The notes: a model not told the origin generated them from the sequence alone. Shown: positions 30,159-36,725, numbered from the stretch's first letter. The stretch: 48,664 nucleotides of DNA from an uncultured Gammaproteobacteria bacterium (GCA_964639335.1 CAZXCJ010000002.1:1-48664), one strand, 5' to 3'. A program made the numbers and translations.

Positions 30159-30259
30159 ACCCCGTTAGAAATTTAGGTTTTAGCGGGAATACAAAATTAA
30201 ATTAAATATAAATATGGACAAGAAAAATAACACAATCAATAAGGGCTTTCTAACGGGGT
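30159..30259. mobile_element. 101-bp MITE-like element with 13-bp perfect terminal inverted repeats ACCCCGTTAGAAA, enclosing the start codon of the DGR target gene
   Basis: Arms lie at 30159-30171 and 30247-30259. The interior shares atacaaaattaaattaa with the ligA-proximal copy. The ATG at 30214 lies inside the element, and the right arm encodes FLTGF. Confidence 0.65.
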
Positions 30260-33200
30260 TTAAAAATAAAAAATTAATTGTATTTTTAGCGGTAATTGTT
30301 GTTTTAATTATTGGTTTTGCAATTGTAAGCGCTACCGGTGGTTTTGGATTTTTTGGTGTTTCAGCTCCAAGTTCAGGTGGTGGATTAGTGGGGTATTGGA
30401 GCTTAGCGGAGTCAGACCTCTACGATACAGATATATTTCAAGACCTTAGCGGTAATGGAAACAATGGAACTTCTGCTAATACTCCTGTTTATGTATCTGA
30501 CCAAGCAGGTGTTCCTAATCAAGCAATGACTTTTAATGGAACTACTGATGCAGTTAATTGTGGAAGTGGAACTACTATTGATGACATTTTTGATTCTGGT
30601 GGAACTGCGAGTGCTTGGATAAATCCGAGTAGTGATGGGGAAGGAGGTTATGGAAAGATATTCAGCAAATGGACTGGTTTTTCTTTTGATACCAGAGAAG
30701 AATCTGGGGGAGATGTAAAAATTAGTTTTAATTATGATTTTGATGGTGCATCAGATGGTCGTTGGGCAACTGCAACAGCAATAATTCCTATAAATACTTG
30801 GACACATATAGCAGTTAATTATGATTCTGATGCAGCTGCTAATAATCCTACTTTTTACATAAATGGTGTTCCTTATACTGTTGCAAGTGGATTAACAGAA
30901 GCACAGACTCCCATAGGGACAAGAGTTTCAGATGCTGGAGCAACTTTATATTTAGGTAATAATGCTGCTACTGTTTTTACCTTTGACGGCTCTATCTCTG
31001 ACGTTATGCTATTCTCTTCAACCCTCACAGAAGACCAAGTTAGACAACTTTATTTATCTGGTAGGACTACTGCGAGAATAAAAGTGGATGCGAGGGAGTT
31101 GATTACTAATGGTGATTTCGCTACTGATAGCGATTGGGATAAAGCTAATGGAGCAACAATAGCTGGTGGTGTAGGTATATTAGATAACACAAATGCATCA
31201 TCTTTGTCTCAAACAGGCATAATAGTTGTTGGAAAAAAATATTTATTAAACTATGAAGTAGTATCAACAGATTTGTCTGGTGGAACATTTAGGATAAGTG
31301 GAATGGAAACGACAGCACTTACAAATGCTGTTGGAAAATATAATAGGGTTATTACTGCTACTGGGACATATTTACGATTTATTGCTTTTGATAATACTTC
31401 TGGAACTTTGGAATTAGATAACATTTCAATAGTAGATATAACAAACGCTATTACTCCTAAACTCCAAAAAGGTTTAATACTTGATATGCCTTTGAATAGT
31501 AGATATACAGAAGCAGGAAGTGGACTTATAACTGGTGATGATTCAACATTTGATAGTGATACTGGAAATTGGACTAAAGGAACTGGATGGACTATTGGAG
31601 GTAATGTTGCTTCTTGTAGTGGAGCTCAAAGTGCTTATAGTAATTTATTATATGCTGATATTTTAACATTAGGACATAGATATTATATAACGGCAGATAT
31701 CACAAGAACAGCTGGAACTATGTATGTTAAAGCTGGTACTAGTGGTAATTACGAAACAATAACTTCTAATCAAAGTATAGCATTTATTTCTACTGCTACT
31801 GGTAATGATGATTTATATTTTCAAGCAAATGCAGATTTTATTGGAACTGTTGATAACATAATAGTAAAAGAACTTGACGGCATAACTAAAGACCGAACCC
31901 CACAAGGAAATGATGGAACAGTAAGTGGAGCTACAATTAAATATGATGGGTTAGTAAATGCTGGTGCTGGTATTGCTTATATAAATCAAGACAAGGCTTA
32001 TGGCACTTTTGAATTTTCGGTTAATAAAGGAGCTGATGGAAATTTACATTATACTGAATTTATTGCAGATTCAAATGATAAAAGTGGAGATGGTTATTTT
32101 TTTTATGTATCTAATACTGAAGCAGTTAGATTGTATAGAAGGGATGATGGTTCAGGTACGATAATAATGTCGTCTGCAGATTCTTATGTAACAATAAACA
32201 CTGATTATCGTATTAAAATAACTCGTTCTCTCGCTGGTGTATTTACTGTTTACATCAAAGGTGGTGCTTTTGGTTGGGATGATTGGACAACTGTTGTGGC
32301 TGATAGCGGTTCTAATCCTGTTACAGATAACACTTATACAACTTCAAATTACTTAGTAGCAGACCTTGATAGTGGCGACACAATTTCTAATCTCAAAATA
32401 GATAGTAAAAGAATAAGTCTAGCAGGTGCAGTTCAAAGCACAGGGACTTGGACATTAACAGGAGACGCTTATGATTTTGATGGAACAGATGATTACATCT
32501 CAATAACTGACACAGATGATTTAAGTTTTGGAGATGGGACAGATGATAATCCTTTTTCAATAAGTAGCTGGGTTTATATAGACGATGCTACTAATTTTAA
32601 TATAATAAGCAAGGGGATTTATAATACCGACGGGGAATGGAGATTTTATTCAGGAGCAGATGATAAAGTATATTTTCAGTTTTATGATGAAAGTGTTGCT
32701 GATACTTATGTAGGCAGAATGTTTAATACCGCTTTAACTGAAGGAGAATGGGTTTCTTTAATCGCAACTTATAGCGGAGACAGCACTAGTGATAGTAATT
32801 CATTTTTTCAAGATGGAATTAAAATTTATTTAAATGGCAATAGAGCAGACAATACTGACGTTGAATCAGGAGCTTATGTGGCAATGGAAAATCTTGACCA
32901 TAATGTATGGCTGGGGAGATATAATACAGATTATGCTAATGGTCAAATAAGAGATATTAAAGTTTATAATAGAGTATTAAATAGTGGAGAAATTCAGTCA
33001 TTGTCAGAAAATTACACAGATTGTCCGTCAGATATGGTATGGGTAGATTATGCTTGGACTTGGCAATCAACTACTTGGAGTAATAGGGGCGGATTTTGTA
33101 TTGATAAATACGAAGCTTCAAATGGCGGAGGAGCTTATTATGTTGATATAAATGGCGACGGTGATATTCTTGATACAGCGGTTGATGTTTATGGCGATGG

Positions 33201-35227: not shown

Positions 35228-35426
35228 TCAGTGGTTATTATAATAAACTTGCTAGAATTTCTATTCTTTATGTAGATAGAGAGAGAGCACTATAAACCCC
35301 AGATTTTATTCCTTTTTTCTGTTTTAGAATTGCAGGGGAAAAATATTAAGGCTTTTGGGATTGGCTTGTATTAGTAATTTTTTTGAGTGAAAATTCAGGT
35401 CAATCCGCCGAGTCTTTAAAATTAAA

Positions 35427-36725
35427 ATGAAAACATATAAAAATTTGTTTAGAAGTATTTGTTCTTTTGAAAATTTACACCTTGCTTATTTAAAAGCGCG
35501 AAAATGTAAAAAATATCGGGATTATGTTTTAAAATTCAGCTATAATTTGGAAGAAAATCTGCTAAAATTAAGGGAGGAATTATTGAATCAGACATATTGC
35601 CATGGTTCTTATAGAGAATTCACTGTTTGCGACGCTAAAAAGCGTCATATTAAAGCAGCTCCTTTTAGGGACAGAGTTGTTCACCATGCTTTGTATCATA
35701 TTATTGAACCGATTTTTAACAAAAGTTTTATTTATGATTCTTATGCTTGCCGAGAAAATAAAGGTACTCATCGGGCAATAAAAAGATTGCAGAAATTTTT
35801 GAGAAGAACGAATATTAATAAGTGTATTTATTGCCTGCAAGCTGACATTTCAAAGTATTTTGACAGCATTGACCATCAAATTTTACTATTGTTGATAGAG
35901 AAAAAAATTAAAGACCAAAAAGTTATTTGGTTGATAAAAGAGATTATAAACAGTTGTTGCATCCATAAGATTTATAAGAATTTATTCGACCCTATTAGAG
36001 ATTCTTATTTTTCGAACGGAACGAGAGTCATAAAAAGTCTGAACGAAGTGAAGACCTTTTATGACCGAGTGAGTGAGAAAAGAATGAATACCCCGTCAGC
36101 TTGCTGCGGGGTTAAGGTGCGACCGAATGGGAGCTCCGATCAGAGTCCAGAGCTTGCTCTGGGGTTTGATACCATTCATTCTGAGCGGGGCAAAAGAGAA
36201 AATGAGAGAAAATCTCTAACGGGGTTTGACTTTAGAAAAACAGGGATTCCTATTGGCAATTTAACCAGCCAGCTATTTGCTAATATTTACTTGAATGAAT
36301 TAGACCAGTTTGTAAAACATGAATTAAAAGAGAAGTATTATCTTCGTTATATGGATGATTTTCTTATATTATATCCTTCAAAGCAGAAACTTCATCAGAT
36401 TAAACAAAAAATTGGGATATTTTTACAAGAGAAATTAAATTTAAAATTGCATCCTAAAAAAGTGAATGTATTTCAAGTAAAAAATAATATCTGTTTTCTT
36501 GGTTATCGTCATTTTATAGATTATAGGTTATTGAAAAAAGATACAGTTAAAAGGTTTATAAAAAGGACTAAAATTTATAAAAAGAGATTAAGTACAGGAT
36601 TGATGACTCAAGAAAAATTTAATGATTCTTTGCAATCATGGTTGGCTTACGCTCAATTTGGTAATTCATGGGGTTTGGTTCAAAAATTGTTCCAAATTAT
36701 ACCAATATCCAAAAAAAAAGATTAA
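35427..36725 (+). CDS. DGR-type reverse transcriptase with a large in-frame insert
   Basis: RT motifs are KAAPFRDRVVHHAL, ADISKYFDSIDH, GIPIGNLTSQLFANIYL (the DGR-diagnostic IGxxxSQ), YLRYMDDFLIL and LKLHPKK. Confidence 0.9.
   Translation: MKTYKNLFRSICSFENLHLAYLKARKCKKYRDYVLKFSYNLEENLLKLREELLNQTYCHGSYREFTVCDAKKRHIKAAPFRDRVVHHALYHIIEPIFNKSFIYDSYACRENKGTHRAIKRLQKFLRRTNINKCIYCLQADISKYFDSIDHQILLLLIEKKIKDQKVIWLIKEIINSCCIHKIYKNLFDPIRDSYFSNGTRVIKSLNEVKTFYDRVSEKRMNTPSACCGVKVRPNGSSDQSPELALGFDTIHSERGKRENERKSLTGFDFRKTGIPIGNLTSQLFANIYLNELDQFVKHELKEKYYLRYMDDFLILYPSKQKLHQIKQKIGIFLQEKLNLKLHPKKVNVFQVKNNICFLGYRHFIDYRLLKKDTVKRFIKRTKIYKKRLSTGLMTQEKFNDSLQSWLAYAQFGNSWGLVQKLFQIIPISKKKD

What the first reader, a model, noticed from the sequence alone, without database searches (positions are those of the whole stretch)
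30214..36725. Complete diversity-generating retroelement: a 118-nt TR/VR pair differing only at 14 adenines
The VR (33733-33850) is the last 118 nt of the 1212-aa ORF. The TR (35110-35227) sits between an Avd-like four-helix-bundle gene and a reverse transcriptase gene.

My ungapped hand alignment gives 104/118 identities. All 14 mismatches fall on TR adenines: 14 of the 25 As differ, and none of the 93 non-A positions do. Thirteen of the 14 lie in AAY codons.
- TR-encoded peptide: RGFIRGGNWNNGSNAGLFALNLNNAPSNTNNNIGFRCVR
- VR-encoded peptide: RGFIRGGIWDLGSAAGLFALHLNYAPSITSFTLGFRCVR

The RT carries the DGR-diagnostic IGNLTSQ motif plus YMDD. The VR sits in a C-type-lectin / FGE-sulfatase-like fold (YDLIGNVWEWTDN ... 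GFRCVR). The identical GC-rich 3' end (ggctttcgctgcgtccgct) is where an IMH would be expected.

The adenine-only pattern implies that mutagenic retrohoming has actually occurred into a very large LamG-rich surface protein. That protein would be a plausible host- or prey-attachment factor in a small-genome organism.
Basis: partly seen in the sequence, partly recalled or inferred. Interest (0 to 1): 0.88.

Follow-up and report, generated by a model that had tools for sequence, protein, structure and literature searches.

The report
Working diversity-generating retroelement in a tiny bacterium
This is a genuine but ordinary diversity-generating retroelement, a reverse-transcriptase system that rewrites the tip of one large surface protein; copies of the same locus from other samples show it has really been used.

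Summary
VR 33733-33850 and TR 35110-35227 align without gaps at 104/118. All 14 mismatches sit on TR adenines (hypergeometric P = 8.5e-12).

All DGR components are present:
- The Avd gene passes NCBIfam's curated DGR-Avd cut-off.
- The RT's best sequence and fold match is the Bordetella DGR RT (8ub7).
- The RT carries IGNLTSQ and YMDD, plus the equivalents of bRT R74 and I181.
- The VR ends an FGE-sulfatase/C-type-lectin domain.

Other assemblies add new evidence. Three VR alleles occur at this same locus and two in a sister species. Together they carry 71 substitutions at TR adenines and none elsewhere. The TR itself never varies within a species. Seven non-A TR differences between the two species are all mirrored in each species' VR.

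It is a chromosomal, Bordetella-like (target-avd-TR-RT) DGR, apparently from a Patescibacteria genome. I rate it a new member of a known kind.

- A DUF559 gene lies inside the cassette.
- The RT carries a nested 240-nt in-frame insertion.
- A polymorphic 43-nt palindrome separates this haplotype's VR from a short periodic ATCTR repeat. That repeat normally abuts VRs.

This haplotype may therefore now be poorly targeted.

The parts
30214..33852 (+). Target gene, 1212 aa. It has one N-terminal membrane helix (aa 21-39), LamG-type domains and a C-terminal FGE-sulfatase/C-type-lectin domain (aa 959-1212).
   Evidence: One search gives the ORF. One search gives Pfam Laminin_G_3 at 8.6e-30 (2 stretches) and FGE-sulfatase at 2.7e-13. 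One search finds a single strong hydrophobic segment, LIVFLAVIVVLIIGFAIVS. One search matches PDB 1y4j (5.6e-7) and 5vf4 (0.0034).
33733..33850 (+). Variable repeat (VR). It forms the last 39 codons of the target gene plus the first base of the stop codon.
   Evidence: 104/118 identical to the TR, with all 14 differences at TR adenines; two further alleles at the same locus, again differing only at A sites.
33830..33850 (+). A-free, G+C-rich 21-nt 3' end of the VR (TTGGCTTTCGCTGCGTCCGCT). It is identical in the TR (35207-35227). This is the presumed 3' cDNA integration region (IMH-like).
   Evidence: The function is inferred by analogy with the BPP-1 (GC)14 element (PMC3240598).
33853..33895 (.). 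43-nt palindrome (ACCCCGTGAGATAG...CTATCTCACGGGGT) directly after the stop codon. It is polymorphic: present in this haplotype, absent in two other haplotypes and in the sister species.
   Evidence: (DNA fold -20.3 kcal/mol).
33912..33934 (+). Three 7-8-nt units, TTAATCTA TAATCTA AAAATCTG. This is the local form of a periodic CTG/CTA array that follows VRs in many DGRs.
   Evidence: Here the array starts 62 nt after the VR. It starts about 12 nt after the VR in palindrome-free haplotypes and in the sister species.
33956..34642 (+). Inserted module: a DUF559 (Vsr-like endonuclease fold) gene at 34131-34481, flanked by direct repeats of about 150 nt rich in hairpins (33961-34110 and 34481-34642).
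   Evidence: repeat families D4 and D6; 77% identity between flanks; DUF559 7.8e-32; sister species has a different DUF559 paralogue elsewhere in its cassette.
34691..35029 (+). avd accessory gene, 112 aa from the ATG. A GTG at 34682 would give 115 aa.
   Evidence: PF22296 bAvd 72.7 bits and NF033474 DivGenRetAVD 86.3 bits, both above their curated cut-offs.
35051..35082 (.). 32-nt hairpin of the same 13-nt inverted-repeat family, 27 nt upstream of the TR. It is fixed in this species and absent in the sister species.
35110..35227 (+). Template repeat (TR). It is non-coding, has 25 adenines including 11 AAY codons in the VR frame, and is identical in all 11 other assemblies of the locus that include it.
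   Evidence: The theoretical repertoire is 5.5e14 peptides, and no stop codon can be generated.
35228..35426 (+). TR-RT spacer. It presumably provides the RNA structure that recruits RT-Avd and supplies the priming site.
   Evidence: 91.5% nt identity to the sister species, against 83-88% for the flanking coding DNA. The role is inferred from BPP-1 (PMC12875486).
35427..36725 (+). DGR reverse transcriptase, 432 aa. It has IGNLTSQ (aa 276-282), YMDD (aa 308-311) and R73 and I276, which correspond to bRT R74 and I181.
   Evidence: PMC7826257 gives the motif and the residue roles.
35989..36231 (+). Nested in-frame insertion in the RT (80 codons) between motifs 3 and 4. The outer 69-nt palindromic insert is shared with the sister species. 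The inner 171-nt G+C-rich insert (about 36010-36180, aa 196-252) is unique to this species.
   Evidence: RNA fold z = -5.05; only the RT frame is open; spacing 131 aa against 38-55 in about 110 homologues; pLDDT 31-56 in the insert.
30159..30259 (.). 13-nt inverted repeat pair (ACCCCGTTAGAAA / TTTCTAACGGGGT) bracketing the ribosome-binding region and start codon of the target gene. It is conserved in the sister species.

Best explanation
This is a chromosomal diversity-generating retroelement with Bordetella-like order (target ... avd - TR - RT) in a small, AT-rich, apparently Patescibacteria genome.

Proposed mechanism:
1. The avd-TR-spacer-RT region is transcribed.
2. The RT-Avd complex binds the spacer RNA and reverse transcribes the TR, misincorporating opposite template adenines only.
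3. The mutagenised cDNA replaces the 118-nt VR. Its 3' junction lies in the A-free, G+C-rich end shared by TR and VR.
4. This recodes up to 14 codons (11 of them AAY) on the C-type-lectin face at the extreme C-terminus of a 1212-aa, membrane-anchored, LamG-rich protein. About 5e14 variants are possible and none creates a stop codon.

Shown here:
- All components are present and each passes its test.
- The A-only pattern holds.
- The TR is invariant while the VR is variable at one locus across assemblies.
- Non-A changes in the TR are copied into the VR between species.

Inferred from the BPP-1 system: the RNA priming, the RT-Avd complex and the integration steps.

Also inferred: the target protein is a binding or attachment protein.
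For: TR/VR statistics come.

Components:
- Avd is above curated cut-offs.
- The RT's best PDB match by sequence is DGR RT 8ub7 (1.3e-51), well ahead of group II and retron RTs.
- The same holds by fold: E 9e-21, target-normalised TM-score (TMt) 0.89.
- The RT carries [I/V/L]GxxxSQ and YMDD, plus R73 and I276, which match bRT R74 and I181.
- 53 of 80 loci encoding relatives of this RT carry an A-biased repeat pair.
- The VR sits at the C-terminal end of an FGE-sulfatase domain.

Population evidence:
- The identical RT, avd and DUF559 proteins each occur on 15-16 contigs from other assemblies.
- The TR is identical in all 11 of the fetched assemblies that include it.
- Three VR alleles differ from the TR at 14, 16 and 12 positions and from each other at 14-20 positions. 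All of these are TR adenines, and 23 of the 25 adenines vary.
- All three alleles are on contigs that run on into the same DUF559-avd-TR-RT, so they are alleles and not paralogues.

Sister species (RT 87% identical, syntenic locus):
- Two alleles with 14 and 15 substitutions, all at A.
- Seven non-A TR differences between the species are all mirrored in each species' VRs.
- In total there are 71 A-site changes and no non-A change.

The alleles that differ are linked to the same insertion-bearing 432-aa RT. So at least some diversification very likely post-dates the RT insertion.
Against: - No read-level data were available, so ongoing within-sample heterogeneity is not shown.
- The allele in this window is the only one seen in the 8 assemblies that carry the 43-nt palindrome. 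That fits low or lost activity in this haplotype.
- There is no canonical hairpin downstream of the VR (7-10-bp G+C stem, GRNA loop).
- The RT has an 80-residue insertion of unknown effect next to motif 4.
- The independence of the assemblies is unknown. Several ENA assemblies may be re-assemblies of the same samples as the JGI ones.
Confidence: 0.93

Rival explanations
1. The DGR machinery is intact, but in the haplotype of this window the target site has been crippled. A 43-nt palindrome plus 8 nt was inserted between the VR end and the downstream periodic ATCTR array. The VR is therefore effectively frozen at the allele seen here.
For: - The palindrome is absent from two other haplotypes of the same species and from the sister species, so it is derived.
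- All 8 assemblies with the palindrome share one VR allele. The 3 assemblies without it carry 2 alleles.
- In 28 DGR loci with a periodic CTG array, the first unit starts -5 to +18 nt from the end of TR/VR homology. Here it starts at +62, against about +12 in palindrome-free haplotypes.
- In BPP-1, lengthening the distance between the VR end and the downstream element lowers homing (PMC3240598).
Against: - There are only three alleles, and the assemblies may not be independent.
- A dominant clone would give the same picture.
- The role of the periodic array is untested.
- A strong hairpin next to a VR could equally help homing. Hairpins do so in BPP-1, although this one has a 3-nt loop and a stem of about 19 bp rather than 7-10 bp with a GRNA loop.
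Confidence: 0.3
2. The element is a relic. The RT was inactivated by the nested 240-nt insertion, and the VR alleles are leftovers of diversification that happened before that.
For: - The spacing between RT motifs 3 and 4 is 131 aa. It is 38-55 aa in about 110 close homologues.
- The insert is predicted with low confidence (pLDDT 31-56).
- The insert lies directly before the IGNLTSQ motif.
Against: - The ORF stays open through 80 inserted codons, while both other frames are full of stops.
- The RT core on both sides is predicted at pLDDT above 85 and superposes on bRT.
- All catalytic and DGR-specific residues are intact.
- Contigs with different VR alleles carry the identical insertion-bearing RT. 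The VR changes are therefore most simply placed after the insertion.
- The sister species carries the outer insert and also has two alleles.
Confidence: 0.07
3. The pair is an ordinary duplicated segment that has drifted, next to an unrelated retron or group II intron RT.
For: NCBIfam has no DGR RT model, and its best hit is the group II intron maturase model. That hit scores 154 bits, below the 300-bit cut-off.
Against: - P = 8.5e-12 for A-only mismatches in this window.
- Over five alleles there are 71 A-site changes and no non-A change.
- Non-A TR changes evolve in concert with the VR between species.
- An Avd gene is present.
- bRT is the best match by both sequence and fold.
Confidence: 0.01

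Closest known systems
Bordetella phage BPP-1 DGR (mtd - avd - TR - brt)
   Same: - Same gene order and strand.
- Avd accessory protein.
- The RT is the best sequence and fold match (8ub7).
- The RT carries the [I/V/L]GxxxSQ motif and the R74/I181 equivalents.
- TR of about 120-134 nt rich in AAY codons.
- The VR forms the last codons of a C-type-lectin-fold domain.
- A-free, G+C-rich 3' end shared by TR and VR.
   Different: - This element is chromosomal and not on a phage.
- The target is a 1212-aa membrane-anchored LamG/FGE-sulfatase protein, not a tail-fibre tip.
- TR/VR homology ends at the stop codon, so there is no separate 21-bp IMH/IMH* pair.
- There is no GAAA-loop hairpin.
- A DUF559 gene splits the target from avd.
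- The RT carries an 80-residue insertion.
FGE-sulfatase-type DGR targets such as Treponema denticola TvpA (class CLec1 of Wu et al. 2018, PMC5758913)
   Same: The VR is at the C-terminus of an FGE-sulfatase-type C-type-lectin domain ending in GFRCVR-like sequence. N-terminal extensions with other domains are known in this class.
   Different: - The Treponema cassette uses an HRDC accessory gene and has remote targets. This one uses Avd and has a single adjacent target in the window.
- I did not check the LamG plus membrane-anchor combination against that paper's list.
Patescibacteria/CPR DGRs (Roux et al. 2021 DGR clade 2, PMC8144416; 'CPR set' of Wu et al. 2018)
   Same: - The closest RT relatives that carry a name are labelled Patescibacteria, Pacebacteria or Parcubacteria.
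- The element is cellular and chromosomal.
- The contigs come from environmental metagenome assemblies. CPR genomes are known to be enriched in DGRs.
   Different: - 90% of the CPR set has architecture B3, TR-(avd)-RT with avd reversed. This one is B1-like, with everything on one strand.
- CPR targets typically lack recognisable transmembrane or other domains. This one has a membrane helix and LamG domains.
- I did not place the RT in their tree.
Rickettsia palindromic elements (in-frame palindromic insertions in protein genes; recalled from memory, not tested)
   Same: The RT insert is palindromic and in frame, leaves the ORF open and sits in a poorly ordered part of the protein.
   Different: No second copy of the insert or of its peptide was found. 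Only the 13-nt arms recur elsewhere, and the loops are unrelated.

Membership tests
Diversity-generating retroelement | TR/VR repeat pair whose differences fall at TR adenines | tested here: met
   14/14 in the window. Across five alleles of two species there are 71 A-site changes and no non-A change.
Diversity-generating retroelement | RT of the DGR clade with motif-4 signature [I/V/L]GxxxSQ (not QGxxxSP) and a YxDD catalytic motif | tested here: met
   IGNLTSQ and YMDD are present. The best PDB hit is DGR RT 8ub7 by sequence and by fold. 53 of 80 relatives' loci have A-biased repeats. No formal phylogeny was made.
Diversity-generating retroelement | Accessory gene (Avd, HRDC or another) next to the TR and RT | tested here: met
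   NF033474 DivGenRetAVD scores 86.3 bits against a cut-off of 80. PF22296 scores 72.7 bits against a cut-off of 40.
Diversity-generating retroelement | VR inside a target ORF, in a variation-tolerant fold (C-type lectin or Ig), usually at the C-terminus | tested here: met
   Pfam FGE-sulfatase covers aa 959-1212 at 50.6 bits (cut-off 23.3). The VR is the last 39 codons. There are weak PDB hits to pFGE and to the Thermus DGR variable protein 5vf4. No structure was modelled for the target.
Diversity-generating retroelement | One-way transfer: the TR is invariant and the VR is variable | tested here: met
   The TR is identical in all 11 fetched assemblies that include it, against three VR alleles. 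Seven non-A TR changes between species are copied into the VRs.
Diversity-generating retroelement | IMH at the VR 3' end, followed within 4-34 bp by a 7-10-bp G+C-rich inverted repeat with a GRNA loop (BPP-1 type target site) | tested here: inconclusive
   An A-free G+C-rich 21-nt end is shared by TR and VR. The only nearby hairpin is a polymorphic 43-nt palindrome with a 3-nt loop, absent in other haplotypes and in the sister species. A periodic ATCTR array occupies the place of BPP-1's 21-bp element.
Diversity-generating retroelement | RT-Avd makes adenine-mutagenised cDNA from TR RNA, primed from the spacer | not testable with these tools
   Only indirect support exists. The spacer is 91.5% conserved against 83-88% for coding flanks. 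R73 and I276 match bRT R74 and I181.
Group II intron / retron RTs (considered and rejected) | RT scores above the family cut-off, with an intron RNA or msr/msd RNA present | tested here: not met
   TIGR04416 scores 154 bits against a cut-off of 300. The retron St85 model scores 43.7 against 235. Rfam finds no group II intron or retron RNA in 33700-36900, even at E up to 5.

The most novel reading that the evidence does not exclude
The short periodic array that directly follows VRs is a general cis-acting part of the DGR target site that I did not find described. Its units are 7-8 nt long and end in CTG, or in CTA/CTG in this AT-rich genome. It would be the counterpart of the 21-bp half of BPP-1's IMH. 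On this reading, this population offers a natural experiment. A 43-nt palindrome has pushed the array from about +12 to +62 nt in the dominant haplotype and has frozen that haplotype's VR. Palindrome-free haplotypes keep diversifying.
Probability: 0.2. Interest if true: 0.6.

Novelty: new member of a known kind. Interest (0 to 1): 0.35.

Why it matters
As a DGR it adds little. Such elements are known to be common in Patescibacteria and in aquatic metagenomes, and these assemblies may already be in published surveys.

Its value lies in three things:
- It is an unusually clean, assembly-level demonstration of the DGR rules: A-only VR alleles, an invariant TR, and non-A TR changes copied into VRs across two species.
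- It shows how much disruption a DGR cassette tolerates. A DUF559 gene has invaded the cassette in two different places in two sister species, and the RT carries nested in-frame palindromic insertions.
- Natural presence/absence variation of an insert between the VR and its downstream repeat array could be used to test what a DGR target site needs.

Tried and rejected
- The metagenome-wide scan for the VR 3' end plus stop codon gave one hit. It was an unrelated FGE-sulfatase gene with 61/118 mismatches to the TR, so a chance match. That scan was thereby spent.
- The apparent absence of DUF559 in L004 was an artefact of a merged ORF call. The gene is there.
- Rfam, at gathering thresholds and at E up to 5, finds nothing credible in the cassette, the RT insert or the spacer.
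- The RT insert has no second copy in the window or in the sister locus (blastn-short).
- The RT insert's peptide has no relative among 5.8 billion proteins. The 'multi-copy in-frame mobile element' idea is therefore unsupported.
- I considered whether the 13-nt inverted repeat ACCCCGTTAGA.../...TCTAACGGGGT is a DGR-specific RNA stem. One distant DGR (L048) has it just before its RT. But it also brackets the ligA start in this window, and it occurs in five unrelated viral contigs without RTs. I dropped it as DGR-specific.
- Similarity between the VR 3' flank and the TR 5' flank is not general among relatives.
- Literature searches for the periodic array found nothing. That does not prove it is undescribed.

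
Full report
**1. 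The observation**

The repeat finder reports one 118-nt direct repeat in 28-40 kb, at 33733-33850 and 35110-35227 with 88% identity. MAFFT aligns it without gaps.

A script counts 104 identities and 14 mismatches. Every mismatch falls on one of the 25 adenines of the downstream copy: A>T 6, A>C 5, A>G 3. None of the 93 other positions differs. The hypergeometric probability of this is 8.5e-12.

Thirteen mismatches lie in AAT/AAC codons and one in ATT, all at codon positions 1 or 2. The upstream copy is the last 39 codons, plus the first stop-codon base, of the 1212-aa ORF 30214-33852. The downstream copy is intergenic.

The repeat is 61% G+C in a 32% G+C window. The shared 3' 18-mer occurs nowhere else in the window even with three mismatches allowed.

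**2. The components**

- **Avd.** ORF 34691-35029 matches Pfam bAvd (72.7 bits, cut-off 40) and NCBIfam's equivalog model for DGR Avd (86.3 bits, cut-off 80).
- **RT, sequence.** ORF 35427-36725 matches RVT_1 in two stretches. Among solved structures its best match is the Bordetella DGR reverse transcriptase 8ub7 (E 1.3e-51, 179 bits). The best group II intron RT scores 91 bits and the chains deposited as 'retron-type' (5hhl, 5hhj) score 79-84 bits.
- **RT, fold.** An AlphaFold model built on 61 homologues (mean pLDDT 80) is closest to 8ub7. The fit is E 9e-21 with target-normalised TM-score (TMt) 0.89, against about 0.63 for group II RTs.
- **RT, motifs.** It has IGNLTSQ, which fits the DGR signature [I/V/L]GxxxSQ, and YMDD. 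R73 and I276 align with bRT R74 and I181, the two residues shown to promote adenine mutagenesis (PMC7826257).
- **RT, relatives.** As an empirical family test, 53 of 80 genome loci that encode relatives of this RT contain a repeat pair whose mismatches are at least 80% at A.
- **Target.** It has one strong N-terminal hydrophobic helix, Laminin_G_3 in two stretches (8.6e-30) and a C-terminal FGE-sulfatase domain (aa 959-1212, 50.6 bits) that ends at the VR. There are weak PDB matches to pFGE and to the Thermus DGR variable protein 5vf4.

**3. Surroundings**

The window is a cellular chromosome. Its genes include recG, ligA, gatA, a MacB-type ABC exporter with a HlyD-like partner next to the target gene, L20, L35, IF3, smpB, tmRNA and tRNA-Asp.

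The closest RT relatives that carry a name are labelled Patescibacteria, Pacebacteria or Parcubacteria. The organism itself could not be named.

**4. Evidence from other assemblies of the same locus**

Proteins identical to the window's RT, Avd and DUF559 proteins each occur on 15-16 contigs from JGI and ENA assemblies.

- The TR is identical in all 11 fetched assemblies of the locus that include it.
- Three VR alleles exist, with 14, 16 and 12 differences from the TR.
- They differ from each other at 14, 20 and 20 positions. Every difference is at a TR adenine, and 23 of the 25 adenines vary.
- All three alleles lie on contigs that continue into the same DUF559-avd-TR-RT. They are therefore alleles of one locus, not paralogues.

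A sister species (RT 87% identical, same synteny) has two further alleles with 14 and 15 differences, all at A. Its TR differs from the window's TR at seven non-A positions. At all seven, each species' VRs carry that species' TR base. This is the expected signature of repeated TR-to-VR copying.

In total there are 71 substitutions at A and none elsewhere. The repertoire encoded by the TR is about 5.5e14 peptides with no possible stop codon.

**5. How it most likely works**

By homology with BPP-1, the sequence of events would be:
1. avd, the TR, the 199-nt spacer and the RT are transcribed together.
2. RT-Avd binds the spacer RNA and primes cDNA synthesis at the TR 3' end.
3. Template adenines are copied unfaithfully.
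4. The cDNA replaces the VR, with its 3' junction in the A-free 21-nt end shared by TR and VR.

The spacer is more conserved between the two species (91.5% nt) than avd (87%) or the RT (83-88%), as expected for a functional RNA. These steps are inferred and not shown here.

The target's membrane anchor, LamG domains and lectin-fold tip suggest an exposed binding protein. Which ligand it binds is unknown.

**6.

(a) *A gene inside the cassette.* A DUF559 gene (34131-34481) with duplicated flanks of about 150 nt rich in hairpins lies between the target gene and avd.
- The VR-to-TR distance is 1377 nt here, against about 600-650 nt in the closest CPR-labelled relatives examined (L023, L030, L044).
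- The sister species instead has a DUF559 gene between avd and the TR.
- That gene is 90% identical to a different window paralogue (41885-42238) and only 45% identical to the one in this cassette.
- The two cassettes were therefore invaded independently.

(b) *A nested insertion in the RT.* The RT has 131 residues between motifs 3 and 4. About 110 homologues have 38-55, and the sister species has 74.
- The excess is a 69-nt palindromic insert shared with the sister species, with a 171-nt G+C-rich insert nested inside it that is unique to this species.
- Its RNA folds far better than shuffled controls (z = -5.05).
- Only the RT frame is open.
- It is predicted with low confidence (pLDDT 31-56), while the core on both sides exceeds 85.
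- Contigs with different VR alleles carry the identical 432-aa RT. The insertion-bearing enzyme has therefore most probably still worked.

(c) *A polymorphic palindrome after the VR.* Directly after the stop codon lies a 43-nt palindrome (33853-33895).
- It is present in all 8 assemblies with the window's VR allele.
- It is absent from the 3 assemblies with the other two alleles and from the sister species.
- It is not the canonical DGR hairpin, which has a 7-10-bp stem and a GRNA loop 4-34 bp from the VR.

**7. A wider pattern met on the way**

In 28 of 49 related DGR loci, the 65 nt after the VR contain three to six units of 7-8 nt ending in CTG (consensus about GnnTTCTG).
- The same test finds 0 of 49 after the TR, 0 of 49 for the reverse complement and 0.7% of random windows.
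- The array also follows second VRs far from avd (L088, L090, L095, L071). It is usually followed by a G+C-rich hairpin.
- It occurs in phage DGRs: FP_Lagaffe has four units and Vibrio phage VP58.5 has two. It sits where BPP-1 has the 21-bp half of its IMH.
- The first unit starts -5 to +18 nt from the end of TR/VR homology in all 28 loci.

The window has three such units (33912-33934, ATCTA/ATCTA/ATCTG). They start at +62 because of the palindrome. In palindrome-free haplotypes and in the sister species they start at about +12.

This raises the possibility that the window's haplotype is now a poor homing target. Its single VR allele across 8 assemblies fits that idea, but so would a dominant clone. 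I did not find the array described in the papers I could search.

**8. Comparison and verdict**

The element meets every sequence-testable DGR criterion except a canonical IMH-plus-hairpin target site. That criterion is inconclusive.

Its architecture is the common Bordetella-like avd-TR-RT type, not the TR-(avd)-RT type reported for 90% of a CPR set. Its target is more domain-rich than is typical for CPR DGR targets.

DGRs are already known to be enriched in CPR bacteria and in saline-lake and groundwater metagenomes. I therefore rate this a new member of a known kind, of modest interest (0.35).

The main caveat is that 'complete' does not guarantee that this particular haplotype is still efficiently targeted.

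Noticed in passing
window 33912-33934; loci L020-L095, L111, L112, each just 3' of its VR: A periodic array of 7-8-nt units ending in CTG (ATCTA/ATCTG here) follows VRs in 28 of 49 related DGR loci. The same test finds 0 of 49 after TRs and 0.7% of random windows. The array starts -5 to +18 nt from the VR end and is usually followed by a G+C hairpin. It sits where BPP-1 has its 21-bp IMH half. I did not find it described in the papers I searched.
   Followed up: partly
window 13026-13128, 30159-30259, 33853-33895, 35051-35082, 35989-36225: Five pairs of a 13-nt inverted repeat (ACCCCRTNAGANA / its complement) with unrelated loops of 6 to about 210 nt. Four of the five lie in or at the DGR locus. 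One brackets the target gene's start codon and is conserved in the sister species. One brackets the ligA start. The same stem lies just before the RT of a distant DGR (L048 643-709) and in five viral contigs without RTs. Its meaning is unknown.
   Followed up: partly
window 35989-36231 (RT aa 189-268): A nested in-frame insertion in the RT. The outer 69-nt palindromic insert is shared with the sister species. The inner 171-nt G+C-rich insert has three hairpins, two of them with CUUG loops. There is no Rfam match, no second copy and no protein relative.
   Followed up: yes
window 29431-29802 (-), 34131-34481 (+), 41885-42238 (-); L015 7156-7503: Three DUF559 (Vsr-like endonuclease fold) genes lie in 48.7 kb, each among repeated hairpin-rich flanks. 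Different paralogues sit at different intergenic positions in the DGR cassettes of the two sister species. They therefore behave like mobile genes.
   Followed up: partly
L006 1-1469 and L100 1-2295, versus window 31500-33732: In the strain carrying VR allele B, the target gene upstream of the VR is a mosaic. Some 100-nt blocks are 45-80% identical to the window and others are 100%. Everything downstream of the VR is 99.9% identical. This suggests recombination or domain shuffling in the target gene outside the VR.
   Followed up: partly
L018 1653-1770: One sister-species VR allele has 14 of its 15 substitutions as A>G. The other alleles show mixed spectra. The total over five alleles is G 38, C 18, T 15.
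   Followed up: no
window 34099 (L004 and L006 carry an extra 42 nt there); window 27257-27341: A 42-nt G+C-rich insert (CCTGCCTGCGCGTAGCAGAAGCTACGCTTCGGCGAAGACAGG) is present in some assemblies just upstream of the DUF559 gene. It resembles window 27257-27341. Other short G+C-rich repeats recur at 11078-11232, 27160-27311 and 38080-38143, and at 24632-24734 and 39729-39831.
   Followed up: no
window 37075-38841: Two toxin-antitoxin-like pairs lie between the RT and rplT: a nucleotidyltransferase with a small partner ORF, and a ParE-type toxin with an upstream small ORF. They are absent from the syntenic sister locus.
   Followed up: no
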